In this document: piece after piece, positions 89-54,529 of the stretch
Numbering within the stretch: position 1 is the stretch's first letter
Layout of the letters: each line of letters starts with the position of its first letter
NCBI GenBank assembly: GCA_020137815.1
Contig: CM035353.1
Location: forward strand, 8,060,001 to 8,124,000
Direction: 5' to 3'
Source: Hormiphora californensis
Lineage: Eukaryota > Animalia > Ctenophora
Length of the DNA: 64,000 bases
The notes under the pieces: model-generated
What the model was told of the DNA's origin: nothing
Database searches by the model: none
Seen by the model: the letters and a program-made list of their open reading frames with translations, nothing else
Program-made: the position numbers and the translations under genes

Positions 89-3000
89 CTCACACAGTCT
101 ACATAGTTCCTATGAATTGTCCTGGTACTGAAAACAGGGAAATGAACATGTAATACTGGGAATGGTTTCTCTGATCCAGTCTCGTATGTGTAGGAACTCT
201 CAATTGCTGCTTGTACCTCATCTGTCTGTAGTGACCACAACTTTACAGAGTGATCCATACTACATGACATTATCTGCAGGGGAGAGAGGGAGAGATAGTC
301 GCAATATCATTATCTGGTGGGGAGAGAGGGAAATACTACATGACATTATCTGCAGGGGAGAGAGGGAGAGATAAGGGGAGAAAGGGAGAGATTTTATACT
401 GTTTGAGTAGTGGTCCATTTCTGGAAAAATAATATTATGCTTTCTTCTGAAGTTAATTACTTACGAATGATGCATTCAAATCAAAATCACAGCTCAGAAC
501 CTCGTCCCGGTGCCCCTCTAGACCACCTACAACGAGAAATTATTGTTGTACACATGGAACCATTGTACAATTACAGGAGTTATAACTATTTTCAACTTCT
601 GGGAAGTCAGAGCTGTAAATTAACTAGGGGGGAGTTCAGCCCTAAAAGATGCCAAGCCATCGGCCAACATCAGGGTACCCATGGCCTTTTGAGGGCTACA
701 CCCCCTCCCCGTAATTAAGGGATGTTCAGGGAATTCCACACCTACCTAGGACCATGATGCATCGTTTAGTTTTCAGGTTCCATAGTCGGAGGGAGTTATC
801 CTTGCTGGCAGAGAGGAGAAGATTGTTATCCAGGGGGTGACCCTTCACCTCGTTCACAGCCCCACCGTGTCCCATTACTGGAGGAGAGGGAGTATTTTAT
901 GTAGCAGATTGGACAGGAAACCGGTAGAAATCTAGAAAAGCTAAAACGATCATGTTTCTCATTGCTGATACTCACATGTAAACACGTCTTTCATTTTCCT
1001 GACAGACACGACCCTAACTAGTCCTCTTTGTCCCCCAACTGCCAGCAATATCTCAATGTCACCCTTCCCAGTCTCCTGGTACACCCAACACACCTGCAGC
1101 AGGGTAATGGGCATTGGGATTCTTCCAAGTCCCAGTCTTTTATGGCAAGCAGACAGATGAATGAAGAATGGGTAATAGACGGGGTTGTTAAGAATATCTT
1201 GTGTTACCTCCCAGTCTTCACAAACATGTTTCTGACAACCAAACAATGGGCAGTATGAACAAGGAACGAGCTAACTTACGGTATAAAATATTTCATCTAA
1301 ACTGGGATCAGAATAAGATTGGACCATTGTCATGCCATTCCCTGGACCACACTCATACACTGTCACCCTGTTATTACCTACAGACAATTGTAGAAGTTAA
1401 TTGTCTGTCAGAGTGAGGGGGTCTCATATTGGTTTTGTAGGTACGCGAATTATGTACTAACAAACAACAGGTAAGGGTACTTACTAACTGCTACTTAGGG
1501 ATACCGGTACAAAACATTAGGTTTGTTTATCATTTTACTAACCAACTGTTGCGAAAACTGCAGGATCTTCTGGGTTTGTGTAGGGGTTAAAAGAAACACC
1601 AAACAAACTATCCTTGTGGTCCTCCCGAACCCATCCTGCCCACCTGAGAGGATATGTATTACATACAGTCGGACCCCGATTTAGGGGCCCCCGATTTAGT
1701 GGCACCCCGATTTAGGGACAGGATTTTTTTTCCCCGATATACGAAAATTAACATAATTTGAACCCGATTTAGTGGACACCCCGATTTAGTGGACAAGAGC
1801 CTTTCCCCCGAGGGTGTCCCTAAATCGGGGTCCGACTGTATTATGTAACCATGGTAACTACACAATCTGAGAGTGTGTAACCATGGTAACAAACTTGGAG
1901 ATGATATGTAACCATGGTAACTACACAAGGGGGGGGTTCCAACCTATTTTTTTGTATTTTTTTGTATTTTTTTGTACGGACCATACATAAAAGTATCCAA
2001 AATTCCTGTTTTTTTCCATACAAACAATACAAAAAAGTACAAAAAAATACAAAAAAATAATGAAGGATGTGGGTGCGTGAAAAAAGTATAAATAATACAT
2101 GTACATGAACATAAACGGAACCCAGCTATACATAAACGGTAAGAAATTGCGATTCGGGGAAATTTCTCGCTTAGAAAATACGATTCGAGAAAATTTTCTC
2201 GGTAAGAAATTGCGATTCGGGAAAATTTCTCGCTTAGAAAATACGATTCGAGAAAATTTTCTCGGTAAGAAATTGCGATTTGGAGAAATTTCTCGCTTAG
2301 AAAATACGATTCGAGAAAATTTTCTCGGTAAGAAATTGCGATTCGGGGAAATTTCTCGCTTAGAAAATACGATTCGAGAAAATTTTCTCGGTAAGAAATT
2401 GCGATTCGGGGAAATTTCTCGCTTAGAAAATACGATTCGAGAAAATTTTCTCGGTAAGAAATTGCGATTCGGGGAAATTTCTCGCTTAGAAAATACGATT
2501 CGAGAAAATTTTCTTGGTAAGAAATTGCGATTCGAGGAAATTTCTCGCTTACAAAATACGATTCGAGAAAATTTTCTCGGTAAGAAATTGCGATTCGGGG
2601 AAATTTCTCGCTTAGAAAATACGATTCGGGAAAATTTTCTCGGTAAGAAATTAGGATTCGGGGAAATTTCTCGCTTAGAAAATACGATTCGGGAAAATTT
2701 TCTCGGTAAGAAATTGCGATTCGGGGAAATTTCTCGCTTAGAAAATACGATTCGAGAAAATTTTCTCGGTAAGAAATTGCGATTCGGGGAAATTTCTCGC
2801 TTAGAAAATACGATTCGAGAAAATTTTCTCGGTAAGAAATTGCGATTCGGGGAAATTTCTCTCGCGATTTTGGCATGCTACATATGTAAAATATGTATAT
2901 ATTTTGTGCTTAATTGCGTGAAAAAGCGTGGAAGAATGTTTAAAAACAGTAAAAGTTCGAACAATAATGGTAAATTACCATATAAAACTGTTTTTATTTT

Positions 3001-3215
3001 TTTGTATTTTTTTGTACTTTTTTGTATTTTTTTGTATTTTTTTGTATTTTTTTGTTTGAGGAAAGCCCTGTTTTTTTCCGTACAAACATACAAGAAATAG
3101 GTTGGAACCCCCCCCTACACAATCAAGGGGCAGGCAACAAATCATACTTGAACCGGTTTTGTTCATCAGATTGTTTTGGTTCCGCTGTAGTTTTCTTTTT
3201 ACCGGTCTTTGTCAT
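89..3215 (-). CDS. EED: Polycomb protein EED/esc (WD40, PRC2 subunit); 5' seven exons, gene continues beyond position 1
   Basis: GT-AG exons 3215-3148, 1643-1543, 1377-1280, 1093-976, 877-746, 526-465, 273-89 join in frame. Peptides [89 protein letters not shown] and [19 protein letters not shown] match EED hallmark motifs. Confidence 0.96.
1666..1838. mobile_element. MITE, Tc1/mariner-type ends, in EED intron 1
   Basis: TIR CAGTCGGACCCCGATTTAGGG ... CCCTAAATCGGGGTCCGACTG flanked by TA on both sides; internal CCCGATTTAG repeats. Confidence 0.9.
1929..3115. mobile_element. Non-autonomous foldback DNA transposon with G-tract/C-tract termini, carrying a satellite
   Basis: Starts GGGGGGGGTTCCAACCTATTT and ends AAATAGGTTGGAACCCCCCCC; 7-8 bp TSD (c)tacacaa at 1921-1928 and 3115-3122; subterminal (TTTTTTGTA)n repeats. 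Confidence 0.88.
2137..2865. repeat. 60-bp tandem satellite (about 12 copies, two related 30-bp halves) inside the foldback element
   Basis: Unit CGGTAAGAAATTGCGATTCGGGGAAATTTCTCGCTTAGAAAATACGATTCGAGAAAATTTTCT repeats in register every 60 nt. Confidence 0.95.
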
Positions 3216-3400
3216 TCTATTGCAAGTATTTGGAGTTAAATTAGTGGTCAAATTTAATCAGAGTAGGAGATATACAGATGATTTTCAACATGTGATAAAC
3301 ATAATGTTAAATCTGAATTATATTTAAACATTGTATAACTTTAACATGGAATAAGCCATTTTACGGTAACAATTATTTTGCATATTTTGCCCCAAAATGT

Positions 3401-6400
3401 TCATTTAAAGTTTTCAAGTCCAGGCATTATTGATGCGATATTATTTAACATCTTGATTTGGTTTTCCTCTGGGATAACCTGAAATGAAAGAAAGGGTACA
3501 AGTTGGTAATTAGCCCCATAGATATCTGTATCGTGGACCCATGTAATGGCATGTTCTACATAGGGCGGCGAGAGGCAAGATAATAACACAAACCTGAAGT
3601 TGGTCAACATGATTTGTAAGGTAAAGAAGGGGAGCTGTAGCGCACACCAGACAGTCCAGCATGTCATTCATTAACCGGGGTACTGTTAGATCAGTCGGCT
3701 CACCAGTCTCTAATGCCTGATGGGATTGGAAAAGTTTTAGATCTACTGATAGACTACGATCCACAGAAATTGGACCATCCTTCTGGACTGATTGACTAGT
3801 CTACCTGGTACCTTCCCTGCCAGTTGCCACTCGGCACTCACTGAGTCCCAGTGAGTCTCACTGATGAGTCTCAGTGGGACTCTCACTGAGTCTCAGAAAG
3901 AGCGGGTAAACGCGCGCGAGAGTGTAAGACATTGCGCGAGATAGTCAAGAAAAACTGTCTCGCGCCCTACGTCTTTATTCCCATGTTTACTTCTTTTGTG
4001 GGCAGTTTTACCTCTGAGGCTATTTCTCCCATTTTGGCGAAGGAATCGCCCAACAGCTTCATATGAGCAGCCAGATCCAGGGCCTCAGGTGGTGTATCAG
4101 GAGCCGGTGCTGCAATACCCTTCCTCTTTTTAGATGTCTTTAATCCAGCCTGAAATATAAAAGAATGAGAATCAGTGTTTCGGGGGCTGACATAGACTGG
4201 CTTGAAACCTCTCAAAACAATACCTTAATATTTTCCTCTTCTTCCTTGTTTCTCCAGTAATCCTTGTCAGTATCTCCTAACTGGGCCCACATACTGGCCA
4301 ACTTGGCTGTAATACCACTATCAAGAAGGCCTGGGAAAGATTATAATAATCTGCATGGTGTGTCAGATCTCCTGATCAAATGACATTCATGATATCTCCC
4401 CTGAAAATAGTTCTAACCTGGGTTTTCCTCAGCAACTTTGTCCCTGGTTTCTTCTGAGAAGAGAGAGTAAGCAGTGATTGAAGGTTTCTTGGGCTCTCTC
4501 TTCTTCCTTACTCTCTTCTCCTTTTTCTCTCGCTTCTGTTTCTTCTGAGATAGTTGGAAGTTTGAAAATTTAAGGATTTATCGGAAATGTGGTTTATTGC
4601 TTGAACCAACACCATACATAATTCCTAACCTCGGTTTTAATAGGTTTTGGTTTGAGAGTTAACTTCCTCCGTTTCTCAATGGCTGCTATTTGTTCTGGTT
4701 CCCGATCAGGGGCCTGCCCCTCCTCCATCACTTCCTCCAAGATGACCGCCTTTTGAGGGGTGTCACCCGTGCCACCCGTAGTTATCACCTCTTCCTGGAC
4801 TGTCACCATCTGATCCTCGGGAATCGGCACCGAGGACAACTGGGGAGGGAGATGGGGGTGTCAGTGGGAGAAAACTGGGGGAAGATGGGGGTGTCAGTGG
4901 GGAGATAACTGGGGGATATGGGGTGTCAGTGGGGGAAATCACTGGGGGGGGGGGGGTGTCAGTGGGAGATAACTGGAGGAGATGGGGTGTCAGTGGGGGA
5001 GATAACTGGGGGGAGATGGGGGTGTCAATGGGAGATAACTGGAGGAGATGGGGTGTCAGTGGGAGATAACTGGGGGGAGATGGGGGTGTCAGTGGGAGAT
5101 AACTGGAGGAGATGGGGTGTCAGTGGGGAGATAACTGGAGGAGATGGGGTGTCAGTGGGAGATAACTGGGGGGAAATGGGGGTGTCAGTGGGAGATAACT
5201 GGGGGAGATGGGGGTGTCAGTGGGGAGATAACTGGGGGATATGGGGTGTCAGTGGGGGAAATCACTGGGGGGGGGGTGTCAGTGGGAGATAACTGGAGGA
5301 GATGGGGTGTCAGTGGGGGAGATAACTGGGGGGAGATGGGGGTGTCAATGGGAGATAACTGGAGGAGATGGGGTGTCAGTGGGAGATAACTGGGGGGAGA
5401 TGGGGGGTGTCAGTGGGAGATAACTGGAGGAGATGGGGTGTCAGGTGGGAGATAACTGGAGGAGATGGGGTGTCAGTGGGAGATAACTGGGGGGAAATGG
5501 GGGTGTCAGTGGGAGATAACTGGGGGAGATGGGGGTGTCAGTGGGAGATAACTGGGGGGATATGGGGTGTCAGTGGGAGATAACTGGGGGGGGGGGGGGA
5601 GAGATGGGGTCAGTGGGAGATAACTGGGGGGAGATGGGGGTTGTCAGTGGGAGATAACTGGGGGGGAGATGGGGTGTCCAGTGGGAGATATAACTGGGGG
5701 AGATGGGGGTTGTCAATGGGAGATTAACTGGAGGAGATGGGTGTCAGTGGGAGATAACTGGGGGAGGAGATGGGGGGTGTCAGTGGAGACTACCTGGGGA
5801 GATGGGGTTGTCAGTGGGAGAGATAACTGGGGAGATGGGGGTGTTCAGTGGGAGATAACTGGGGGAGATGGGCGGGTGGTCAGTGGGGGAATAACTGGGG
5901 GAGCTACTGGGGGAAGATGGGGGGTGTCAGTGGAGATAACTGGGGGAGATGGGGTGTCAGTGGGGGAGATAACTGGAGGACGATGGGGTGTCAGTGGGAG
6001 ATAACTGGGGGGGAAATGGGGGTTGTCAGTGGGAGATAACTGGGGGAGATGGGGGTGTCAGTGGGAGATAACCTGGGGGATATGGGGTTGTCGGTGTCAG
6101 TGGAGATTTAACTGGGGGGGGGGAAGATGGGGGTCAGTGGGAGATAACTGGGGAGATGGGGGTGTCAGGGGAGATAACTGGGGAGGGAGATGGGGGTTGT
6201 CAGTGGGAGGATAACTGGGGGGAGATGGGGGTGTTCAGTGGGAGATAACTGGGGGGAGATGGGTGGTGTCAGTGGGAGAGAACTGGGGGGAGATGGGGTG
6301 TCAGTGGGAGATTTAACTGGGGGGAGATGGGGTGTCAGTCGGAGATAACTAGGGGAGATGGGGGTGTCAGTGGGAGATAACTGGGGGAGATGGGGTGTCA

Positions 6401-6850
6401 GTGGGAGATAACTGGGGGGAGATGGGGGTGTCAGTGGGAGATAACTGGGGGAGATGGGGTGTCAGTGGGAGATAACTGGGGGAGATGGGGGTGTCAATGG
6501 GAGATAACTGGGGGGAGATGGGGTGTCAGTGGGAGATAACTGGGGGGAGGGGGAGATAACTAGGGGAGATGGGGTGTCAGTGGGAGATACCTGGGGGAGA
6601 TGGGGTGTCAGTGGGAGATAACTGGGGGGAGATGGGGGTGTCAATGGGAGATAACTGGGGGAGATGGGGTGTCAGTGGGGTATATTACATTAGATAGAAG
6701 ATTCAGAAGTCAACTGTCCAGTAATCACAGTTTACACGGTGGGGGGGTTGCCATGGTTACCATTTGTAACCATAGTAACCCACCCTCACTATTTACCTCT
6801 TCCACAACGACATTATCATCCTTCCTATCAAAGAGACTCCGTCCTTCCAT
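3401..6850 (-). CDS. HMGXB4: HMG-box protein HMGXB4 (HMG2L1)-like, 7 exons
   Basis: Exons 6850-6797, 4839-4630, 4544-4418, 4330-4224, 4149-4012, 3716-3594, 3478-3401 join in frame. HMG box PKKPSITAYSLFSEETRDKVAEENPG...AKLASMWAQLGDTDKDYW; C-terminus LDLAAHMKLLGDSF...LDCLVCATAPLLYLT...MLNNIASIMPGL resembles the conserved HMGXB4 C-terminus. Confidence 0.88.
4840..6680. repeat. G-rich 32-33 bp minisatellite (about 55 copies) filling HMGXB4 intron 1
   Basis: Unit CTGGGGGAGATGGGGGTGTCAGTGGGAGATAA starts exactly at the acceptor of exon 2; the middle part is indel-rich. Confidence 0.95.
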
Positions 6851-7137
6851 GCTTTCTAATTGAATGCTTTCTAATTGAATATACCAAACAATACAATAAC
6901 TTGCCAAGCTAGACTGTGTTTCGGGCCCCCAAATGTAAAGGGAGGGTTAGATCATAACAAACACTATTTGTTATGATCAACAGAATGGAGCACTGTTAGG
7001 AATGGTACTAACAAAAGCAATAACAAAACCACTAAAAAGTACACTAACACTGTACTAGTACAGTGTAGTAGTAGCAGCGGCAGAGCAAAGTTAAAATACG
7101 GGTGCCTTCCATAGTTAACAATTCATCGATTTTGTTA

Positions 7138-7663
7138 AAATCTGGGTGCCTTTCGTTGCTAACAATTCGTAGTTTTAGCACGCCCGACGGGTTAGGGCTA
7201 TCCGTTAGGGTCTCGTTAGGGTTTGGTTTGGGGTTATCGGTTAGGGCTATCGAGTATCGATTCTCTTCCAGTTACGGTTTAGTTTACTCAAATTGGCCAT
7301 GTGGTTGCGTGGCTATAGCCGTTTGAAAAAAGTCGGTCTAAGTGTAAAGTCGGATTTTTTGAAGATGTCACCCCCCTGGGTGGCACACGAGAATTATTTG
7401 CACGTCGGAAACTTGTCGGAAGCATGTTTTGGCTCTCACGCCTTTGTTTCTTGACCAATTTCGTCAAACCAAAGTTTTACGGACTCACAAAGTTATGCTC
7501 TTTCCGCTGATATGCGGTTTTTTGCCGAAAAGTGAGAGCAAGTGGGGGCTGTCACGTGCAAATACGACGCCACGCGTGAAAAGGGGGGTGACAACTTCAA
7601 AAAATCCGACTTTACTCTTTTGGTAGCGCACACCTGTAAACAGGCCGCAAGGCACCCAGATTA
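7138..7663. mobile_element. MITE family A (TIR AATCTGGGTGCC, internal GGTTAGGG motifs), interrupted by a family B MITE
   Basis: TA-flanked AAATCTGGGTGCC ... GGCACCCAGATT; uninterrupted homologues at 16751-17000 and, inverted, 17122-17393. Confidence 0.85.
7347..7612. mobile_element. MITE family B nested in family A at a TA
   Basis: TIR AAGTCGGATTTTTTGAAG ... CTTCAAAAAATCCGACTT with TA duplication; the empty site is visible in the 16751-17000 copy (GGTCTAAGTATACTTTTTGG). Confidence 0.88.
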
Positions 7664-7941
7664 TAATCGTGCCCTGCCTTATCCCGCGCTGCAAGGACGG
7701 CGCTCGTGGGTGTGAGGTGTCCGGGTGTCCGCAGACACCCAGACCAAAAAAACGGAGAGAGAAAAGAAGAAAAAATGGAAAAAAACAACAAGAATTTGAA
7801 AAAAAAATTTTTGGGGGGAGAGCGCTCCCGTATTGAAACCTTGGTTCCGAGAGCTGTACTCGGATGTACATGATGGATGCGCTCTCTGGCGCCAAAATAA
7901 CTCTGTGCTATTTTCCGTACGACTGCTTCTTGCTAGCTTCG

Positions 7942-9843
7942 TTTCAAGATTCAAGATTCAAGATTAAAACAGAATTTATAATGTCAATAAAATCAACGTC
8001 CGCTCATACACTATACGAGCCTCGATATGCACAATGCAGTTTGCACTAACATATAACCAGGCCCGGTAATAATAATATTACTAGTTACCTTAAGCGGAGT
8101 ATAGCAATTAGGTAACGAGAAATATGTAAGTACATTAGGTACTGTCCGAATCATCAAGTCAATCAATACATTACATAATAACAGTTGGTTTTCTTACACA
8201 TTGATTAATGATTGGGTGCCACACGAATAATAATAGTAATGAGAAAACACAGTTAGACAAGCCATCATTATAACACTGTTTCTGATATGGATTAAGCAGT
8301 GAAGTAAAGGGACCTAAAGACCGATGTGAATTTAGGTTGGAGTAAAGGAACCCAGGAATGATGTCGCAAAGGGGGGGGGGGAAGGACCCAGGACTCATGC
8401 TGGAACTGATGGGAAGTAGGCTGAAGTGAAAGGACCCGGAAAAACCGATGGGAAATAATGTTGGAGTAAAAGGACCCAGTACAGATATTACAATGCAGTT
8501 ACTGTCCGTATGCTTTATAGAAGAGGTGTGTCTTCAGTGCTGTTTTGAATGATGATAGGGATTTGGAGTCACGAATCCCTCGTGGTAATTCATTCCACAT
8601 TTTTGGAGCTGCAACACTGAACGCCCCTTTGGTGCTCTCGTAGTGAAACTCACTTCTCCGTATTTCCTTGAGGGTTGTATCATCGTTATCAATCCTGAGT
8701 GACTGAACTTTCTGAGGTCGCTTCATTAACATTTCAGCCATGTAGGGGGGTGATTTTCCATGGATGGTTTTATATACCAGTAAGCAAATTTTATACTCTA
8801 TTCTTTGTCTTACAGGTAAGAAATGTGATTTCATTCTCAGTTTTGTCACACCGCGTCTGCCTCTCTTGCCATATATAAATCGTGTCGCAGCGTTTTGGAT
8901 CTTTTGGAGTCTCTTTAGATCACTATCTTTCATAGAAGAAAACAGGGAATTGCAGTAATCTATACGACTATGGATGAGAGTTGTCACCAGCTTCGTTTTC
9001 TGCATCTTGTTGAGTTTCCCAGCAATCCTCCACATTTGCACAAGTTGAAAGTTACATGCTTGAACAACTTTAGTAACGTGATCGGACATGGATAGGGTAC
9101 TGTCGAATATCACGCCCAAGTTTCTTGCAGATGGAGCGACCGTCGTTTCCTCCTCTTCTGGATCAATTTGAATAGTCTCAGTTTCTGCTGCTTTGCTCCA
9201 TTTACTCTTCAAGATGAGCACTTCTGTTTTGTCAGGATTTAGTTTCAACATATTGTGTGCCATCCACACCCTTATATGTGCCACACGTTTCTGTAACCTA
9301 TCAATGACATCAGCGATGGAGTCTGGTTGAAAGGAGATGTGAAGCTGAGAGTCATCAGCGTACATGTGGAGGCTGAGACCATATAGAGCAGCAATCTTTT
9401 CTAAATCCTTCGTATACAAGATAAACAGAAGTGGTCCCAGTATGGACCCTTGGGGAACGCCAATCTCGATCTGATTGGGACTGGACTCAATAGTTCCTAT
9501 CTTAACCTTGGCAGATCGTCCAGATAGGTAGGACTTTATCCACTTGAGAACCCGGCCTCCCATTCGATATTCAGTCTCAAGTCGATGTAATAGTTTGGAA
9601 TGAGAAATCGTGTCGAAGGCGGCAGATAGGTCCAACAAGACTAAGATAACCTGAGACTTTTTGTCTATCTGCATGAGGATGTCATTGACAATCTTCACAG
9701 TGGCAGTTTCGCAGCTATGGTTAGTTCTGTAAGCAGATTGGAACTTAGCAAATAGATCATGTTTCTCTATATGTCCTATCAACTGGTCTGCCACACATTT
9801 CTCTATCACTTTCGAGAGGAAAGATAAGTTTGAGATGGGTCTG
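7942..9843 (-). mobile_element. 5'-truncated L2-clade non-LTR retrotransposon (RT and C-terminus, ORF stop at 8499)
   Basis: RPISNLSFLSK, QSAYR, LLDLSAAFDT, GVPQGSILGP, YADD, SRIDYCN, LKTHLF; 3' tail (TCTTGAA)n at about 7942-7965. Confidence 0.93.
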
Positions 9844-10049
9844 TTTCTTTGGTAGAGTTGGTCGAGGGGAGTGTCGATATAGGAGGGCGAATTGGCATGG
9901 AAAATTCGCACATCCATATGAGCCAGCTGCATTTTTCGCCACATGTCAAGTGCGACCACGTCCATCCTTGCACCAGGGGCTGTGTTTGCCGAAGGGTGAA
10001 AGTGGATGCCGTCCGGACAAGGGAGAAGTAGCTTCTCTGTTTCCACACC
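9844..10049 (-). mobile_element. Fragment of a CRE-like retrotransposon restriction-like endonuclease region, fused in frame to the L2 ORF
   Basis: VETEKLLLP...ANTAPGARMDVVALDMWRKMQLAHMDVRIFHANSPSY matches the recalled pattern VE.EP.L...AN....AR.D....W.......DVR..HPN..SY of animal CRE elements; such a motif does not belong upstream of an L2 RT. Confidence 0.75.
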
Positions 10050-12750
10050 TTTGATTTGATTTTAAACTAATTTGCAACATATACAGGAAAAGTAGCACAC
10101 ATAAAAATATAAATATATATAAGTCCCTGTATATAGAGCAGATTAGGGGCAGGTCTAATTAGACGCTTACGCCGCAGAGTCACACTAAATCAATTTATAG
10201 GGTGATGTAGATAATAAATTAGTTAATAAATTAGAGGTATTGATTTATTTAATTTTATTTTTGTGTATTTTAGATTATTTTGTCCTGTCGGTGAGTCACG
10301 TCATATAGTCATGCTGGAGAGAGTGTTTTAGGAAGTAGAAAGAGTGCAGGAGGGAGAGATATATTAGAGAGGTTTTGAGAGAAGGGGAGAATGAGGGAGA
10401 GAGAGAGAGAGAGAGAGAGCGAGAGTGAGGGAGGGAGAGAGAAAGAGAGTGCAGCAAAGTGCTTCACAGCTGTACTTTCCTTAAATCTAGGATTAGAGGG
10501 CTAGTAATAGAGATACAGCTGTAGTAGAAGATATTTTATGTTACTCCATGTTCTAGCATGTGGTTCTTGAGTTTAATGGAAAAAAGTGAAGGGTTGCATA
10601 TTTCTCTTAGAGACAGTGGAAGTAAATTCCAGGCCAAATGTGTTCTGTAGAAAAATGACTGCTCAAATGACTCAAGTCTTGCCCTCTCGGTACAAACAAT
10701 ATGAAGGTCATCTCTCTCACTCTGGAATCTCGTTGTTCTAGTAAAATCGGATTGTCTGTCATACATGTGTAGGTATGCAGGTAGTTGCAGAGGAATGTGA
10801 GAATAAACTATTTTGTGCAGAAGAGATATATCGGTGTAAAGGAATTTGAGGGACATCGGAAGTAGTTTCAGTTCACATAATTTCTCTCTATATTCAGTGT
10901 CAGTGTAGCTAGCATATTGTTCATTAAGAATAAATTTCACAGCCCTTTTTTGTATCTTTTCAAACTTACTGAGACCATTATCACTTGAAGGTCTCCAGAT
11001 TGGTGAACAGTGTTCAAAAAGTGACCTAACTATAGCTATGTAAAGAGTTCTTTTAGCTTGTGTCTGACAGACCATATTACAGTGCCGTTTGATCAGACCT
11101 AGTTTTTGTGAAGATTTTGATACAACAGATTCGATGTGATCAGTGTAGCTTAGTTTGGCCGTCATAATCACCCCCAGATCCGTTTCTGACGATGTACACT
11201 CTAGTTCTACTCCCCCCAATAAGTATCTAATATCTATAACATCACGTTTACATGTACTACGTATTACTTTACATTTAGAGGGATGAAACTTCATTTTATT
11301 TGCAGTGCTCCACGCTTCTAAATTATCTATATCTAACTGCAGACTGTCGTTTTGACATCTAATTTCCCGCCAAATCTTGAGGTCATCGGCATATAATTTT
11401 ATTTGGGTACCATCTCCTACACTATCAACAATATCGTTTATAAATAGGACAAATAGTAGGGGGCCTAGAATAGAACCCTGAGGTACACCAGATGTTACAG
11501 GAGTCCAATCTGAGAATGTGCCATCTACCATTACACGCTGTCTTCGATTTTGGAGATAAATTTTTATAAAGTTTAGCAGCTTACCGTCTATATCAAATTG
11601 GTTCTTAAGTTTTTCTAATATTAAGTCATGGGAGACACTATCGAAAGCCTTAGAGAAGTCAAAATAAACTATATCAGTTTGGAGATGATTGTTTAGATTA
11701 TAGGCAAGTTGACTAGAAAATTCAATAAGCTGTGTGTTACATGATTTATGAGGAACAAAGCCATGTTGATGTATTGTTATTTTGTCTTTGCATTGAGAGT
11801 AGAGCTTGTCCCTGACTAAATTTTCAAAGACTTTCATAACTAAACATGTGAGAGATATGGGCCTATAATTCCTAACATCGTTCTTGGCACACTTTTTGTG
11901 TATAGGGACAACATTTGCATCTTTCCATTCGGCAGGGATAACGCCAGCGTGGAAACAGCTATTAAAAAGTAAGGAAAGTGGTTTACTAAGAGAAAATCTG
12001 CATTTCTTTAAGACAATACCCTCTATATTATCTGGACCAGTGGCTTTAGTTGGATCTAAATTTTTGAGCACTTTAAAAACATCACTTTCCATAAAATAAG
12101 TGTCATTACAGTCCGAAAGATTATTTCTACTATAATTAACGTGAGTTTTGTAATCACTGCTACCCGAGAACTGTTGACTAAAAAAGTAATTAAACATGTT
12201 ACATTTATCTTCTGAATTGGTGGATGTGGTATTTTCGTTATGTAGAACGTCAGGGATTCTAGTACTATGTGATAGAGATCCAATGTGTTTGTACAACTTT
12301 TTAGACACAGAGTTTCCAGAGCCTTCGCAAGTGAAATAACTTGCCATTTTATTTTTAACCATTTCCCTATATGACACTTCAAGTTTTAGGAAAAAGTCTT
12401 TAAGAGCAGGATCTGACCCAGAGCTATTAGCTGACTTTCTTGCTCTATCGAGTCTATTTTTTAGATTTTTCAGCTCACTGTCATACCATGGGGGTTTATC
12501 CCCAACTTTAACGAGAACCATAGGAATATGTTTTCTAAGAATTATGTCCAGTTTTGATTTAAAGATGTCTAGCTTTTCTTTAATTGTACGGTTTCTAAAA
12601 ATAGGCCCCCAGTCAACTTTACCTAATTCATTATTTATGCTGTTCCAGTCCGCCTTCTTGTAACAAAATTTTCTCACTTTCGTGACAGACTTGGGTTTCT
12701 TGATCAGGGAGATATCAGCTGTTAACGTGAAATGATCAGAAGAAGTAAGG
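10050..12750 (-). mobile_element. 5'-truncated CR1-clade LINE (end of APE, intact RT, ORF stop at 10536)
   Basis: SDH end of the APE domain, ATGPDNI, YRPISLT, QHGF, YFDFSKAFD, SGVPQGSILGP, YADD; 3' UTR with (CT)n and a short (AATCA)n tail at about 10050-10062. Confidence 0.93.
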
Positions 12751-12783
12751 CCCGCATGAGGCCCCTCGGAAATGTTCAAGTCG

Positions 12784-12879
12784 TGCACAATCAAGTCACG
12801 CCCACCAATCACAGCTCAGAACGCGCGAAGCACCCCGCGCGTTCTGAGCTGTGATTGGTGGGTGTGACTTGATTGTGCA
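12784..12879. repeat. 96-bp near-perfect inverted repeat between two LINEs
   Basis: TGCACAATCAAGTCACGCCCACCAATCACAGCTCAGAACGCGCG, an 8-nt loop, then the reverse complement with one mismatch. Confidence 0.9.
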
Positions 12880-12916
12880 TCATCATCATCATCATCATCA
12901 TCATCATACAAATATT

Positions 12917-12950
<34 letters not shown>

Positions 12951-15730
12951 TATACATTTGATATACCGCTTTTATGCGTTATAAATGGAGGAAACAACTA
13001 AAGAACCTAATGGCTAGTGTTGTATGAACATCTCTCCACCGCGACTAAAGCGGTCGTCTTGGAATAATAGAATAAAAAGCTATGCTTAGATAATGGCCAG
13101 AGATAATAAATTAAAGTTAGATTAGTTAAATATAGAAAATTGTTTAAAAAACAGTTAGAAACAGTTAGAAACACACACATACGCACTACTGTCTAGCTGT
13201 AAAACCTAGAAGATCTTAACTAAACAGAACCTAGTCCTCCACACTCTATGCGACAGGCTGATTCAGAAACACTCGAATGAAATCCGTAACACACATACAA
13301 ACAGAATTCGAAACTCGTTCTCAACCCATGCTCAGTAAATGGAAAAATTAATATAAATACAATTTCATTCTGAATTTCATTACTCATACACCACACACAG
13401 TGATACAGAAACAACTCCATGTCATAAATAAACAAGAGCTCCAAAAGTAAAGTCTCAGTCTCAACTCAGTCTCAACTCAGTCTCAACTCAGAAACACGAG
13501 TTCTTAATACAGCATTGGAGATATACTTTGAAAGTCACACGTCATGAGGAAGAAAACTCATGTTACAATTAAACCTCTCAATTCAAGAAAAGTCACACGT
13601 CATGAGGTTGAAAACTCATGTTACAATTTAACCTCTCAATTCAAGAAAACATACTATGAGGTAGAAAACTCAAGTTAAAAGTTCGAAAACAATCACTCGT
13701 ACGCTAGTCTAAAAAGATGAGTCTTTAATCTAGTTTTAAACATTTCCACAGTTGATGATTCACGGATGCCTCTAGGAAGTCCATTCCAGAGCTTTGGGGC
13801 ACTTATGCTGAATGCAGCACTGGTTTGACGGTACTTAGAAGAGAAGGATCTTTCGAGAAGTGTCAGATCATTATCGTTTCGAAGGTTGCGTCCAGTCTGT
13901 GTCCTCGGTGTGATGAGATCTTGCAGATATAGAGGTGCTAATCCATTGATGCACTTGTAGGTCAATAGCAATATCTTGAAGTCAATTCTAGCGTTCACTG
14001 GAAGGAAGTGCAGTTCTCTCCTCAGTTTCGTTACACCTCGACGTCTCCTGTGGTTGTTGATGAACCTGACAGCGCTGTTCTGGACTTTCTGTAGACGGTT
14101 TATATCTTTTTTCGAGGCTTGCTTCAGTAGGGCGTTTCCGTAGTCCAAGCGAGAATGGATCAGGGTGTGGACCAACTGGATCTTTGTCTGTCGATTTAGC
14201 CTGTTTCCGATTCTCCACAGGTTTGAAAGCTGGGCCCAGCAAGAGCGGACAGTCCTGGAAATGTGTTCAGTCATTGACAGCTTGGAGTCAAACCAAATCC
14301 CTAGGTTTCTTGCTGTTTCTGCTACTGTGAAGTCTTCTTCGTCAGGATCTAAACATAACGTTTCTGGAATGGATGACTTGTCCGCCTTGTTGGTCAGCAC
14401 TAGAACTTCAGTCTTTGAAGGGTTTAACTTTAAAAAGTTCTCTCCCATCCACCATTGAATGTGTTTGAAACATCGCTGGAGTCGTCTGAACACGTCATCT
14501 GTGTTGTTTTCATCAAAGCTCACATAAATTTGCGTGTCATCAGCGAAAAGGTGAATGTTGAGATCGTAGACACGAGCAATGTCTTGAAGATCCCTGGTGT
14601 ATAGCACAAAGAGAACGGGTCCCAATATACTGCCCTGGGGAACTCCAATTTCAACCTCCAGAGTATCAGATCGGTTGTTCTCAAGTAGTACAGATGTTGA
14701 TCTACTTTGTAGGTAAGATTGAAACCATTTCAAAGCGTTGCCAGAGATCCCATACTGATCCTCTAACTTCATCAGGAGTCGGCTGTGTTTCACAGTATCA
14801 AAAGCAGCACTGAGGTCGAGTAGCAAAAGGATAGTCTTTGATTTGGAGTCCAACAGAACTAACAGATCGTTCACAATCTTCAGGGTGGCTGTTTCACAGG
14901 AATGAAATTTGCGATAGGCTGACTGATGAGAGGGAAACAAGCCATTATCTTCGAGGTAGTCCACGAGCTGGATACTGACTGCCTTCTCCACTACCTTGGA
15001 GATGAACGACAGATTGCTTACAGGGCGATAACTTGATAGGTCCTCAGGGTCTAGCTCCTTTCCCTTGAAAGATGGTCTGATTATTGCCTCTTTGAATGAC
15101 TGCGGGAAGATACCGGTGAGGAGACTATCATTCACGATCTTGGAGATTGTAGGAAGTAATTCTGGTAGACACTCCATGATTAGGGATGTTGGCATCGGGT
15201 CAAGCTGGCAGTGCTTCCTGTTCATTTCCCTGATCATCTTTAGAAGTTCTTCATCAGATACTGGAGAAAAGGCAGTGAACTTTGTTGTTGGTTTGTCTGG
15301 CTGAGGGGTGACTGCAGGGGGTGGAATGGATTGAGACTCTATCTGTTGGTAGATCTTGGTCACTTTTGATTTGAAGTACTCGTTGAATTCAGGTGCAAGC
15401 TGGCTTGGTTCTTTATCAGATGGTAGAGTCGTTGGAGATTTTTCAATTCCAAGAAGTCCGTTGACCACAGAGTACATCCCTTTTGCATTGCCCTGCAGTC
15501 GTTTAAACTCAGCTTGGTAGTACTTGGATCTTGCATCCTCGAGGGTTTTTACAGAAACTTTGCTTGCTTCTTTCCATTCAATGTAGACTGATGTAAGAAC
15601 CCTGGCGTTGCACGATTTCAGTAGTCGCGACTTCCATCTCCTCTCTTTAGCTCGGCGGATTCGTCTCACTCTCAGGCAGGTGACATTTTTCATCCATCTT
15701 GGGACAGTTCTTATCTTCACCTTCTACTGC
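12880..15730 (-). mobile_element. 5'-truncated L2-clade LINE (ORF 15720-13693)
   Basis: LDPMPT, YRPVSNLSFISK, QSAYR, DLSAAFDTV, GVPQGS, FADD, SRLDYGN, LKTHLF; long 3' UTR with about 58-bp tandem repeats, GCGGTATAT terminal motif and (TTA)n/(GAT)n tail. Confidence 0.93.
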
Positions 15731-16527: not shown

Positions 16528-16748
16528 AAGTCGGATTTTTTGAAACTGTCACCCCCCCTAAGTTTTCAAATTTCTTTAAATGACCATAAGTCCGGTTCCT
16601 GATAAGATAGAGACTTGAAATTTGGAGGTTATAAAGATCTTGCTAAGTTCTTCCGAACCTCCAAATTTCAAGTCTCTATCTTATCAGGAACCGGAGATAT
16701 GACAAATTTGTTATTTCAGGGGGGTGACAGTTTCAAAAAATCCGACAT
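16528..16748. mobile_element. MITE family B, second member
   Basis: Same GTCGGATTTTTTGAA...GTCACCCCCC termini as 7347-7612, TA-flanked, different interior. Confidence 0.85.
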
Positions 16749-16750
16749 TA

Positions 16751-17393
16751 AAATCTGGGTGCCTTTCATTGCTAACAATTCGTAGTTTTGGCGCGCGCGA
16801 CGGGTTAGGGCTATCTGTTAGGGTTTGGTTAGGGTTTGGTTTGGGGTTACCGGTTAGGGCTATCGATTCTCTAACTGATACCGTTTAGTTTACACAAATC
16901 GGCCATGTGGTTCCATGGCTATAGCCGTTTGAAAAAAGTCGGTCTAAGTATACTTTTTGGCAGCGCGCACCTGTAAACAGGCTGCAAGGCACCCAGATTA
17001 TAAAAAAAATCGCGCCCATCAGCAAACTTTCATTTTTCTTGCCAGGTTAGACTGTTTTTTCGCGCGCCCCGCAAAACAAAACAACATTTTTCACAAAACG
17101 CCTCAAAATGGGGCGCGATTATAATCTGGGTACCTTGCAGCCTGTTTAAAGTCCGTTTCAAGCGACTTGACCCGTAATTCTTGGAATTTGGCGCATTGCG
17201 CGTGTATTTACAAAGGGGAAATCCTGAATGGAACCACATGGCCGATTTGAGTAAACTAAACGGTATCAGTCAGAGAATCGATAGCCCTAACCGATAACCC
17301 CAAACCAAACCCTAACCAGACCCTAACGGATAGCCCTAACCCGTCGCGCGCGCCAAAACTACGAATTGTTAGCAATGAAAGGCACCCAGATTT
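16751..17393. mobile_element. Two family A MITEs in inverted orientation (16751-17000 and 17122-17393)
   Basis: Each is bounded by AATCTGGGT(G/A)CC / GGCACCCAGATT; together they form about 165-bp outer inverted arms with GGTTAGGG/CCCTAACC motifs. Confidence 0.85.
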
Positions 17394-17550
17394 TAACGTT
17401 TTCCCTCAAAATGTCCAAAGTTTTCGTGTGGCTTCGCCCCCTCAAACCCACCGGGGCTTGCAGCCCCTGGACCCTGCCTGCAGGGGGCTCTGCCCCCGCC
17501 GGGGCTGCGCCCCTGGACCCTGCTTCGGTTAGGGCTATCGATTCTCTATC

Positions 17551-17593
17551 AGTTTCAAACTTTTCAACACTACTTTAAACAAATTAATTTGAG
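17551..17593 (+). ncRNA. Genomic copy of the ctenophore trans-spliced leader (SL) exon
   Basis: AGTTTCAAACTTTTCAACACTACTTTAAACAAATTAATTTGAG agrees with the Pleurobrachia/Hormiphora SL as I recall it. It is followed by GC rather than a GT donor, and the ATG of the next gene lies 20 nt downstream. Confidence 0.8.
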
Positions 17594-17613
17594 GCGTGAG
17601 CCTCTAGGTAGTG

Positions 17614-20600
17614 ATGGGAACGAAAGACAACGTGGGCGATAACCCTATGAATGAACGGCTGAAGAAGTCAGTGAATGACTATGTTTTGGAGATCATGAGA
17701 TTGGAATTCGCAGGAACCTCGGAAGAGATGGATGTTGAACCTCATGTGGTAACTGATAACTACAACTTTTTCAAACAATTTCCTGAGTCAAAACTGACCC
17801 CTGATAGTGCTGGTACAGTTTATAAAGATATAAACACCTACTACAGTCACGGATTGAGATATAATATAGGTAGAGACAGAGAGATCAACGTAAGATTATT
17901 CCAGATGTCTATCTAATTTGGTCAAACACCATTTCCTTCGTTTAGCCATGGTTTGGAAAGTTTACGAGGGTATGCGGTACTTTGAAGACAGCACTGAGTA
18001 CGAGTTACAGAGGTTTCAGAGAATCTACCAAAACTGGGAGAAGATGGTTGAAGTTGGTCTGCTCTCAGCTGACAGCCACTTTTACAATTACCGTCCCTCT
18101 TCCTGGGCAAAAGATAAGGCAAGACTTGAACGATGTAAGTGCAGTGACAAATCTTAACTTAGTCTGGGTTAATTACTGCAATCTGCATCAAAGTATGTAA
18201 CACTTCATTCTTTGTTTCAGTTCAAGAAGCTATGAAAAGGCACAAGGAGGGTTTAGAATCTCTAGAAGAAGAGACTGATACCGATCCAAGAGAGGGACAA
18301 CCTCGTACACCCTGCCTTCCAACTCCTGAATTCTCCCGTCCCAAGTCGGGGAAGGAACGTGTCTCTGTGGAACTATCTCCAGTTCTAATAAAACAAGAAA
18401 TGGAGGACTTGGAAAGAGTCCCACAACATCTCATTCACATTGCTAGAAAGTAAGTGTGATTTATCTACTATTGTTAAAACTCAATTGTGTTTTGTAACAC
18501 ACTACAACTACAAATCAACACTTTAATTTGACTAAATACACCTCATATTATTCTTAGGGTTAACAAAGATACGAAAGAACCGGACGTTTATCTAGACGAG
18601 ATATTGATACAGTCAATTCCAGATAGTTTGAATAAGATAACTGCATTACTGCACCAGAAGGATCTCACAATGTTTGTTGCTGACACAGTTGTTGATATGA
18701 GAGATGTTATGGAATTTAGCCCTGGATCTAAATACGAAATGTTGGAATGTTTAGAAGAAACCCTGACTGAAGAAGAGCTGTTATTTCTGGAGGAGGAAAC
18801 TAAACTTGCTAAAATGGAGCTGCAAAATTTAAGGTTTGAATTGTGGAACTTTAACCCTTTCTTCCTATTATTGCTGAGTCAGCATGTGAATAGTTGGAGA
18901 AAACGTTTATTTTCTGTTGCAGTGATGCAGAGTTGAAAAGGGAACTGGAAAGTTTGGAATCAGTGTCTTGTTACCCGCTCTTTCCGCATCCTGAAGAAGA
19001 GTTTCTTGAGGAAGAGGAGTTGGATAAAATTGACCGATACACTGCCGATATCCTAACATTGACTAAACAAAAAGGCAATCTTTCAAACGAAGAGTGAGTA
19101 TAGAAAAATCAGAAAAATTGCTATTTCTTGTGCTTACAGATCTGGCTTCTTTTCATCAAATGCTTAATTTCAGATAATCTAACATCTATATCCTGATCAG
19201 GTTTGATAAAAAGATGCGAGATATTCTGATAGAATATGAGAGGATTGTTATACCAGACGATGAAAGTGTCCTTGAAAAAGATACCCAGAACGGTACCGAA
19301 TCTGCAGATAACAAATTGACTAGTCCCCAACCAACAACCATCACATCAGCACCCACTACATTACATGAGAAACAAGATGAAATAGATGATTTTGATTTTC
19401 TCGGAGATGAAGATAATGTGATGAGGTATCTAACCAGTGAGAACAAGGATCCTGGAATATCGGAACTACCATGTATGCCACTACCCCAAGAAGAAGCTGT
19501 GGGCAGTAAGAATGAGGAAGGGGAGGGTAGTGTGAGAAGGAACCCGGTGAGGAAAGCTAAGGAAGGAATCTCATACACTCTTTGTGATGATGATGATGAT
19601 ACTGATGATTATTGTAAGTGTCCGGGGGTTTCGAGTTTATCAGCCAATTCCTTACATATTGATCCCATTTCCTTCCCTCAGATTGTTGGAGGTGTAAGGA
19701 CTTTGTTCCCTCTATTTGTGAGCTACATGGCGACCTGGAACCTTGTTCAGAGATCATTACTGCTTCTGGTACTAAAGACCCCAAAAAGTTCCCCGTCCCC
19801 AGTTTCATCAAGATAACTACCTCCAAAATACCCAATGCTGGGTTTGGTGTCTTCGCTGCAGAGTTTATCAGACCTGGAGTCATCATTGGTAAGTGTGGTG
19901 TGTACAGATAATGGGCAGCCCATTGTCTGTACACCCTAATTATGGGCTAATTAGATGATTAGATCTAATGCGCTAACCGCTAATTAGATCATTAGATCTA
20001 TTAGTATAGCTCTGTTTCTTGTAATTGTAGATTAGACTTTTTCCAAAGCTGTAAATACCCATTTCTCAGGTGAATACAGAGGAAAGAAGCTTACTCAAAA
20101 GAAGTACCAAGAACTGGAACAAAGTGGGAAAGAGTCTGGGTACGCATGGAAGGTTAAAACCAGTAAAGGGGTCCACTTTGTGGATGGTTCATCCTACAGA
20201 TCAAGCAACTGGCTCCGGTTCATCAACTGTGCAAGGGGCCAGTGTGAAGAGAACGTTCTGATGAGAGTTTGCAAAGGTTTGTTGCTACTTCTAAGTTCTA
20301 TCAACCAACAAAGTACAAACCAACTGATGATTTTAATTAACGTTATCCTCTTGCCCAGCTTTATAATTACCAGCTATTTTCTCTCAGGGGTTGTCCAGTA
20401 CTATTCCTACAAACCAATTAGAATTGGCCAGGAATTACTACTCTTCTATGGTGATGAATATTTCTCTGATCTTGGCTATGACATCTGCCGTGAGGATTCT
20501 AGTAATGGTAAGTGCAACAAATAGAAACACGTTGGTTTACATGTAAACCAACGTGTTTCTATTTGTTGTACTATCTGCTCTCGGTTCCACGCCGATAGAG

Positions 20601-21547: not shown

Positions 21548-22283
21548 ACTATTGATGTCATAAATCATTCACATTGTGGAATCGAACATTGATGTACAGA
21601 TAGGGTGCGGATACTGTTGGGCGTATGACAATATTCTAGGCTTGAGGTTTTGGTCTGTTGGATCGCATATATCGTGTATTTTGTTAAAAATCGATGTCAC
21701 TCTGTCGTTACTTGTGTTTTCTATTTTGTGAGCCAATCGTTTTATTTCTGTCAAAAGTCAAACCAAACTTTGAAAAGCTGCATGCAGTTCCCTCTACAAC
21801 TGCACTGTCCTAGTGACACCTATCATATCTTCATCTCAGCTTGTCAAAGACCAAAGTATCCCAAACTAAACCTGATCACCTGTTGGTCATGGTTGCTGCC
21901 AGGCAAATCAGGAGTTGACACGTTCCTTGTCTGTCAGCTCTCACACCGGGCCTTCGGCCCGGTGTGAGCTTACGCGAGCTGACAAGTCCGAGGCCGATAG
22001 ACAGACTGCGTAGCATGGCAAATCAGGAGAGACGTCCACCACCACAGTCGGTACCTCATTGAGTTATGTAACGCGCGGGTATTCTCTACAGGGTAAAGTA
22101 TCTTGGTGTCACCTACACGCGCGCACTTTAAACTCTGGTTTCTGCAGCTGCTGCGACAGATTCAGTTCTCTGTCTGCCTCGTTATTTGCCGCTCCGGGAG
22201 TCGGGACAAGTTGTTTCTGTTAGTGTTAGGATTCTGACACACTTCTCTGACAGAACTGAGTAGTACCAGTGAGTATCTGATTA

Positions 22284-26068: not shown

Positions 26069-54529
<28,461 letters not shown>

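What the first reader, a model, noticed from the sequence alone, without database searches (positions are those of the whole stretch)
17525..17620. A spliced-leader exon is hard-wired in the genome 20 nt upstream of an intron-containing PRDM9-like gene
Seen: 17551-17593 reads AGTTTCAAACTTTTCAACACTACTTTAAACAAATTAATTTGAG, followed by GCGTGAGCCTCTAGGTAGTG and the ATG at 17614. It has no GT donor, no clear Sm site follows, and it is preceded by a MITE family A fragment (GGTTAGGGCTATCGATTCTCT) and TC, giving an initiator-like TCAGTT. Recalled knowledge: this is the ctenophore SL, normally added to mRNAs only by trans-splicing. SL plus short UTR plus ATG is the layout of a mature mRNA 5' end, yet the gene keeps nine introns and I see no poly(A) or TSD. 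Inference: either a trans-spliced but not cis-spliced pre-mRNA (or cDNA 5' end) was reverse-transcribed back into the genome, or an SL gene was captured in cis so that the gene makes its own leader. Active-looking LINEs next door could supply RT.
Basis: partly seen in the sequence, partly recalled or inferred. Interest (0 to 1): 0.92.

Follow-up and report, generated by a model that had tools for sequence, protein, structure and literature searches.

The report
Spliced leader written into comb-jelly gene
A perfect DNA copy of the short leader that comb jellies normally splice onto their messenger RNAs sits directly in front of a coding exon upstream of an intron-containing PRDM9-like gene, likely because the front end of a processed RNA was copied back into the genome, a process known from dinoflagellates and, for jumping genes, from flatworms.

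Summary
Positions 17551-17593 equal positions 2-44 of the published Hormiphora californensis spliced leader (SL). There is no GT at the exon end and no canonical Sm site.

Corrections:
- It is not unique: 718 genomic SL copies are already reported, unclassified. In one DNA run 23 contigs leave the SL end with other sequence.
- The family's conserved start is the ATG at 17948, behind an acceptor, not 17614. The 17614 frame looks coding but has no homologue; its splicing to the gene is unshown.
- At least one intron is ancestral, so this is no mature-mRNA retrogene.

The left junction is 23 nt identical to the adjacent MITE plus a 7-nt inversion overlapping the SL start.

Best reading (0.5): an SL-capped RNA 5' end was copied into this gene copy, leaving the introns in place. 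Rivals: a foreign SL-tagged fragment (0.25), or an atypical SL RNA gene (0.12; the SL pairs with the next 27 nt). The junction is unconfirmed in reads. This scan noted SL-tagged copies before in Euglena and dinoflagellates.

The parts
16745..17399 (.). MITE-like inverted-repeat element next to the junction; likely template of the filler
   Evidence: self-BLAST; very high depth in all four DNA runs
17526..17548 (+). 23-nt interior MITE piece: 100% identical to both arms of the adjacent element (16851-16873, 17272-17294), 88% over 25 nt to the copy at 7237-7261; read as filler DNA
   Evidence: filler reading is inference
17548..17554 (+). 7 nt equal to the reverse complement of the MITE's next 7 nt (16873-16879); the last 4 are the first 4 of the SL (microhomology)
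17551..17593 (+). Ctenophore spliced-leader exon copy, 43 of 43 identical to positions 2-44 of the published leader; followed by GC, not GT
17561..17620 (+). Predicted RNA stem: 17561-17575 pairs with 17606-17620, plus a 5-bp hairpin 17591-17604 across the SL end
   Evidence: -18.5 kcal/mol; 5 of 5000 shuffles; 4 of 2394 post-YAG contexts
17594..17613 (+). 20-nt spacer (5' UTR-like)
17614..17889 (+). Repeated, coding-like frame from ATG 17614 (open 100 codons if unspliced, to 17916); candidate first exon ending at 17869 (in frame) or 17889 (stronger donor, out of frame in this allele); no homologue found
17870..17945 (+). Candidate intron 1 (76 nt, or 56 nt from 17890); its acceptor could equally be the gene's own trans-splice acceptor
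   Evidence: use as an intron not shown
17946..18134 (+). First conserved exon; family start ATG at 17948, 2 nt after the acceptor
18221..19613 (+). Four linker exons (18221-18449, 18558-18833, 18923-19093, 19201-19613)
   Evidence: gene model; alignment to P0003
19682..20507 (+). Zinc-knuckle and PR/SET exons (19682-19888, 20070-20276, 20388-20507)
   Evidence: Pfam PRDM2_PR E 9.3e-16; 82% identity to P0002 over 148 aa
20739..21547 (+). Last exon, C2H2 zinc-finger array and stop
   Evidence: Pfam zf-C2H2
8499..15723 (-). Three LINE-type reverse-transcriptase frames upstream (8499-10061, 10536-12815, 13693-15723); a possible RT source in trans, not shown to have acted here

Best explanation
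The 43-nt leader at 17551 is likely a DNA copy of the 5' end of a trans-spliced RNA, joined to local MITE-derived DNA on the left and heading a coding-like exon that probably is a lineage-specific first exon of this PRDM9-like gene copy. Shown: exact SL boundaries, no GT or canonical Sm site, filler-like left junction, coding behaviour of the frame, an ancestral intron kept, no poly(A) or target-site duplication. Inferred mechanism (about 0.3 of the 0.5): a cDNA of the SL-capped mRNA patched a break at the 5' end of an existing gene copy. One end would recombine inside exon 1 by homology; the other would join by 4-nt microhomology and template switching to the adjacent MITE. That would replace the upstream acceptor region with the SL and leave every intron in place. 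The alternative within this reading (about 0.2) is reverse transcription of a whole trans-spliced but unspliced nuclear pre-mRNA. Whether the copy is transcribed, and whether the SL serves as a built-in leader, is untested.
For: Exact match from the leader's second published base to its last; PMC8527503 notes that over half of annotated transcripts begin with AG, so 17551 may be the true first base (inference). Left flank is a MITE interior piece, not a promoter-like unique sequence, with a 7-nt inversion overlapping the SL start. Frame from 17614: open at least 85 codons in 0.001 of 5000 dinucleotide shuffles; codon score 0.129 against -0.72 and -0.64 in the other frames (0 of 1000 shuffles reach it; 3.2% if stops are ignored). 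Of the 9 differences listed for this segment, 2 are silent, 7 conservative and 0 radical, P about 0.01. In organism A (X1, X5) segment and gene exons have similar depth, about 1200-6600 against 900-9200. Raised depth ends about 100 nt after the stop (2795 to 279 in X1). A contig of X5 joins 17813-17954 with 0 other letters and 7 extra letters; if these are exonic the stronger donor at 17890 is in frame. The intron after codon 62 (phase 1) is shared with L001 and implied in 16 of 23 related gene calls, excluding a fully spliced template. Precedent: intron-retaining DinoSL copies (PMC5585692, PMC6050394, passages).
Against: No listed contig bridges the SL-spacer junction (one search shows 32 of 32,497 pieces), and no RNA was laid. 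Relatives are conserved only from Met 17948: 10 of 13 named Bolinopsis proteins start there and none matches 17594-17945 (best E 0.24). Two close relatives (P0001, P0026; P0001 is 89% identical in the first conserved exon) show a forced stop and no ATG in the frame an upstream exon would need, and no detectable likeness to 17700-17889 (190 and 105 of 200 shuffles score as high). In organism B (X7, X11) most listed depths on the segment are several times those on the gene exons (X11 3100-11000 against 380-1760), and a contig leaves at 17850, which fits an independent repeat; the tool warns that contig depth is no copy number. The in-frame donor at 17870 is the weakest of the nine. The SL-downstream stem is not explained by this reading.
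Confidence: 0.5

Rival explanations
1. SL-tagged fragment of another multicopy transcript (a transposon or an unrelated gene) inserted about 350 nt upstream of the PRDM9-like gene's own acceptor. The gene would still be trans-spliced at 17946 and start at 17948; the neighbourhood is incidental or at most a young chimeric exon.
For: No homologue of the 17614 frame in the family or databases. Close relatives lack it. Higher depth than the gene and a branch at 17850 in organism B. 23 contigs in X1 leave the SL end with non-G sequence, so SL-tagged pieces are common. Flatworms have 597 SL-bearing loci tied to LTR/LINE elements (PMC12582326, passage). About 30% of Hydra transposon Iso-Seq reads carry an SL (PMC12220107, passage).
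Against: Depth parity with the gene in organism A; the X5 contig runs through the segment into the first conserved exon; in-frame donors exist; reverse transcription from a poly(A) end leaves 3' rather than 5' fragments (established knowledge); no poly(A) or second junction is visible near 17850-17890.
Confidence: 0.25
2. A dispersed, decayed or atypical SL RNA gene (GC at the donor), whose 'intron' part is the sequence after 17593; the frame from 17614 and the gene downstream are separate matters.
For: The SL alone has no predicted fold (0.0 kcal/mol), but with the next 27 nt it gives -18.5 kcal/mol: 5 of 5000 shuffles, 4 of 2394 post-YAG contexts and 1 of 1290 gene positions are as stable; with 20 or 35 nt 13 and 19 of 5000. 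Three of 4 departures from a perfect complement are A-to-G and keep G-U pairs. A 5-bp hairpin spans the exon end. The downstream segment is repeated and uniform (one 212-nt contig at depth 1191 in X5).
Against: No GT at +1 and no canonical Sm motif in the 167 nt behind (criteria from PMC7986045, passages). The U-run at 17683 is 90 nt away and predicted paired. The z-score fades from -2.65 to -0.44 as the stretch is lengthened. The long stem alone is matched by 146 of 5000 shuffles, the length was chosen after seeing the fold, and the SL also pairs at -12.8 with the exon at 17946. The coding signals of the frame are unexplained. No Rfam match.
Confidence: 0.12
3. Capture in cis at DNA level: an SL RNA gene upstream was fused to exon 1 by loss of the DNA between its donor and the gene's acceptor, so the gene makes its own leader from an SL promoter.
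For: Explains intron retention and the lack of poly(A) or duplication; hundreds of dispersed SL copies give opportunity; 43 of 43 identity beside a segment 7.5% diverged from its main type (P about 0.03) fits selection as well as recent origin.
Against: The DNA left of the SL is a 23-nt MITE piece that ends at the leader's first bases, leaving no upstream promoter; a base-exact deletion itself usually needs a cDNA.
Confidence: 0.06
4. Assembly artefact or cDNA contamination.
For: The junction itself is not seen bridged in the pieces listed.
Against: The SL joins intron-containing DNA and local MITE DNA; X1 holds four contigs with 0 differences to this locus, introns and 3' flank included (4 of 8 listed; X1 may be the assembly's source); other non-G SL continuations occur in DNA contigs.
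Confidence: 0.04

Closest known systems
DinoSL-tagged retrogenes of dinoflagellates ('mRNA recycling'), including intron-retaining ones (PMC5585692, PMC6050394; passages read)
   Same: Genomic SL directly upstream of a start codon; introns of the parent kept in some copies; SL proposed to double as a promoter
   Different: Animal host; one full-length SL with 43 of 43 identity rather than decayed relics; filler-type left junction; link to the gene unproven; no parent copy identified
SL pieces on LTR/LINE loci of parasitic flatworms (597 loci; PMC12582326, passage read)
   Same: Animal genome with SL sequence fused to non-SL-gene DNA, read as integration of trans-spliced RNA
   Different: There partial leaders on retroelements; here a whole leader before a frame with no RT or transposase match, upstream of a host gene
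718 genomic leader copies of Hormiphora californensis and 491 of Mnemiopsis leidyi (PMC8527503, passages read)
   Same: This copy is very likely one member of that published set
   Different: The passages read count the copies but do not sort them into SL RNA genes and fusions
Ctenophore PRDM9-like PR/SET-zinc-finger family (Bolinopsis microptera XP_063688670.1 and its 26-member cluster)
   Same: 35% identity over model residues 88-958; same domain order; multicopy
   Different: Bolinopsis proteins lack the 86-aa extension; no KRAB or SSXRD match, so orthology to vertebrate PRDM9 is not shown
5' terminal hairpins of non-trans-spliced C. elegans mRNAs (PMC9984361, abstract only)
   Same: A hairpin at the mRNA 5' end tied to escape from trans-splicing
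   Different: There a mimic without SL sequence; here the SL itself pairs with the spacer, and function is untested

Membership tests
Ctenophore SL exon | Identity to the published leader, ending in TGAG | tested here: met
   43 of 43 against positions 2-44
SL RNA gene | GT donor directly after the exon | tested here: not met
   GC at 17594-17595; GT 2 nt later scores 0.2
SL RNA gene | Sm site (AT4-6G) 20-60 nt behind the donor, single-stranded | tested here: not met
   no canonical motif in 17594-17760; ctenophore Sm motif itself not available to me
SL RNA gene | Stem-loop pairing exon with intron start | tested here: met
   -18.5 kcal/mol, 5 of 5000 shuffles; predicted only
SL RNA gene | Short capped transcript, tandem array or snRNA-type promoter | not testable with these tools
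SL-tagged retrocopy (DinoSL type) | SL fused without donor to a UTR and start codon | tested here: met
SL-tagged retrocopy (DinoSL type) | SL-less parent with an AG acceptor at the same point | not testable with these tools
   no genome held; L001 has no similar SL in 1470 nt upstream (59 of 300 shuffles score as high) but does not share the segment
Classical processed retrogene | Parental introns lost | tested here: not met
   ancestral intron after codon 62 kept
Classical processed retrogene | Poly(A) tail and target-site duplication | tested here: not met
PRDM (PR/SET plus C2H2 array) | PR/SET domain followed by zinc fingers | tested here: met
Full-length PRDM9 | N-terminal KRAB and SSXRD | tested here: inconclusive
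   no Pfam or PDB match for 24 aligned N-terminal exons; a by-eye likeness to the PRDM9 KRAB is recalled only
Helitron-captured gene | 5' TC, 3' hairpin plus CTAG, both ends repeated with the element | tested here: not met
   motifs present (17549; 21783-21813) but the 3' part is at single-copy depth in X1 and nearly absent in organism B

The most novel reading that the evidence does not exclude
Ctenophores recycle SL-capped RNA into their genomes on a large scale: a good share of the hundreds of genomic SL copies head intact, intron-containing genes. This expanding PRDM9-like subfamily carries a hard-wired leader, folded onto its own 5' UTR, that makes its mRNAs independent of trans-splicing. 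That would be the first animal counterpart of dinoflagellate mRNA recycling and a visible tag for otherwise invisible RNA-templated gene rewriting.
Probability: 0.15. Interest if true: 0.8.

Novelty: new member of a known kind. Interest (0 to 1): 0.5.

Why it matters
An SL in DNA marks sequence that passed through an RNA stage. If it heads a gene that kept its ancestral introns, it records RNA-templated rewriting of a gene's 5' end, which cannot normally be seen in animals. It also turns the unexplained 718 genomic SL copies of this group into a testable question: how many are SL RNA genes, how many are fusions, and where are the real ctenophore SL RNA genes? If the rival holds, it is ordinary SL-tagged repeat debris beside a gene.

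Tried and rejected
Dead ends:
- No whole genome is held, so SL copies could not be classified.
- Derelle et al. 2010 and a second ctenophore genome paper tried by a recalled id are not held. The supplement of PMC8527503 could not be read and may classify the 718 copies.
- Metagenome scan with the first conserved exon: 0 of 230 candidate stretches confirmed. With alignment A1: 1 of 85 (L001); L001 has no similar SL upstream, but its species' SL is unknown.
- ESM Atlas hits for part of the 17614 frame were at chance level (recognition 1898, about 100 of 256 features shared). The word search found no candidate at near lengths only.

Considered and rejected:
- A second, decayed SL near 17750-17787: 182 of 2000 shuffles score as high.
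- KRAB: no match.
- Rfam: 0 matches in the window.
- Helitron ends: the 3' end is not repeated.
- Mature-mRNA retrogene with regained introns: one intron is ancestral.
- An 8-nt flanking repeat (17541 and 22081) as target-site duplication: chance level.
- Two of three comparisons of the filler were out of register and are not used; BLAST is cited instead.

Literature: searches listed no paper whose title or abstract start reports an intron-containing animal host gene with a genomic SL. I read only passages of some, and subscription papers are not covered.

Full report
Observation. The 43-mer at 17551-17593, a 20-nt spacer and an ATG at 17614 are present as described. The 43-mer equals positions 2-44 of the leader printed for Hormiphora californensis in PMC8527503 (passages). 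It occurs once in the window, against 0.01 expected. The same passages report 718 genomic copies in that species and 491 in Mnemiopsis without sorting them; the supplement could not be read. The window is therefore probably from H. californensis or a close pleurobrachiid; the SET region is 82% identical to a Pleurobrachia bachei protein. No whole genome is held.

Not a canonical SL RNA gene. The exon is followed by GC; a GT two bases on scores 0.2 against 3.5-10.9 for the model's donors (a matrix from only nine sites). No AT4-6G motif lies in 17594-17760, the criterion used in PMC7986045 (passages). One SL RNA-like feature is present. The SL alone does not fold, but with the next 27 nt it forms a 14-bp interrupted stem plus a 5-bp hairpin across the exon end, at -18.5 kcal/mol. 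This is reached by 5 of 5000 shuffles and 4 of 2394 post-YAG contexts. The length was chosen after seeing the fold, the long stem alone is matched by 146 of 5000 shuffles, and the signal fades over longer stretches. I treat it as a real but unexplained hint.

The gene. A ten-exon model from 17614 is open for 958 aa; from 17948 it is 872 aa in nine exons. PR/SET and C2H2 domains are matched by Pfam. The model aligns at 35% identity over residues 88-958 to a Bolinopsis PRDM9-like protein. That protein's 90% cluster has 26 members; 11 of the 13 named ones lie on one chromosome-size contig. KRAB was not detected.

Where the gene starts. Conservation among 23 relatives begins at the Met encoded at 17948, 2 nt after an acceptor (the same spacing in L001). 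Ten of 13 named Bolinopsis proteins start there and none matches 17594-17945. Two close genomic relatives keep weak likeness to the last 56 nt before the ATG (4 of 200 shuffles) but none further up (190 and 105 of 200). They also have a forced stop with no ATG in the frame an upstream exon would use. So 17614 is not the family's ancestral start.

The 17614 frame nevertheless behaves as coding. It is open for 100 codons (0.001 of dinucleotide shuffles reach 85), and its codon use fits the gene's exons (0 of 1000 shuffles; 3.2% when stops are ignored). The 9 differences listed for it (a table cut to 40 of 726 rows by the tool) are 2 silent and 7 conservative (P about 0.01). No homologue was found.

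Introns. The intron after codon 62 (phase 1) is in L001 at the same place and is implied by the read-through Cys in 16 of 23 related gene calls; the other 7 end at an earlier intron. It is ancestral, so a fully spliced mRNA was not the template. Other positions differ: L001 has two introns the window lacks and lacks one the window has. There is no poly(A) and no convincing target-site duplication.

Read data (four DNA runs kept as contigs; depth is no true copy number). X1 holds 4 contigs with 0 differences to this locus among 8 listed (depth 144-348). The gene exons and the 17629-17840 segment are repeated. In X5 one 212-nt contig covers the segment at depth 1191 with 16 differences and no gap. 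Another joins 17813-17954 at depth 133 with no other letter and 7 extra letters; these would put the stronger donor at 17890 in frame if exonic. Raised depth ends near 21640, about 100 nt after the stop. In organism A segment and exons have similar depth; in organism B the segment is mostly several times deeper and one contig leaves it at 17850. In X1, 23 contigs leave the window sequence exactly at the SL end (agreement 0.42, consensus not starting with G) and 16 enter near its start. SL copies with varied flanks are therefore common in the DNA. None of the 32 listed pieces (of 32,497) bridges the SL-spacer junction, and no RNA run was laid, so junction and expression stay open.

Left junction. 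The 23 nt ending at 17548 are identical to both arms of the MITE 250-680 nt upstream and 88% to a farther copy. The next 7 nt are the reverse complement of what the MITE has next, and their last 4 are the SL's first 4. Short locally templated filler with microhomology is typical of break repair by end joining (established knowledge). Applying it here is inference from a pattern noticed after the fact.

Mechanism. I commit to an RNA-derived SL heading what is probably a lineage-specific first exon of this gene copy (0.5). The most likely route is a cDNA of the capped mRNA patching the 5' end of an existing copy, which needs no intron loss, poly(A) or duplication. Less likely is reverse transcription of a whole unspliced pre-mRNA. 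LINE RT frames lie nearby, but their role is not shown. Rivals: an SL-tagged fragment of another multicopy transcript beside the gene (0.25); an atypical or decayed SL RNA gene (0.12); DNA-level capture of an SL gene (0.06); artefact (0.04).

Known kinds. SL-tagged gene copies, some with parental introns, are described in dinoflagellates (PMC5585692, PMC6050394, passages). SL pieces on retroelements are described in flatworms (PMC12582326, passage), and SL-bearing transposon transcripts in Hydra (PMC12220107, passage). Passages of PMC12460157 and PMC4760075 added nothing on this point; PMC9984361 was seen as abstract only. Ten library searches listed no report of an intron-containing animal host gene with a genomic SL, but Derelle et al. 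2010 could not be read. Earlier notes of this scan describe SL-tagged copies in Euglena and dinoflagellates; none is from this genome.

Verdict. A real feature; a new member, in an animal, of a known kind; link to the PRDM9-like gene likely but unproven; interest 0.5.

Noticed in passing
window 40537-53663: A long frame from 40537 runs into about 425 copies of a 27-nt unit (41702-52991), preceded by 32 copies of a 21-nt unit and followed by a 33-nt array; it reads as a giant Pro/Glu/Val/Thr-rich repeat protein exon.
   Followed up: no
window 30398-31343: Inverted repeat with 461-nt arms, 98% complementary, 24 nt apart.
   Followed up: no
P0003-P0015; P0020, P0029-P0037: This PRDM9-like family is amplified into near-identical copies in several ctenophore lineages: 26 members at 90% identity in the Bolinopsis cluster, one a 2002-aa doubled protein, and several copies per contig in unnamed assemblies.
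   Followed up: partly
L001 1334-2424: Intron positions differ from the window gene at three of four places compared; a possible 8-codon in-frame first exon (1334-1358, phase 1) lies 106 nt before the acceptor.
   Followed up: partly
window 17813-17954: An X5 contig has 7 more letters than the window here; the window allele may carry a frameshifting deletion in the candidate first exon.
   Followed up: partly
window 17606-17620: 11 of 15 identical to the reverse complement of part of the SL; 3 of the 4 differences are A-to-G, which fits G-U pairing or, speculatively, editing of a fold-back RNA.
   Followed up: partly
window 21783-21813: 7-bp DNA hairpin followed by CTAG then T, Helitron-end-like, but at single-copy depth.
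   Followed up: partly
window 19094-19200: Intron 5 keeps the frame open only with the acceptor at 19200; the stronger-looking one at 19173 gives a stop.
   Followed up: partly
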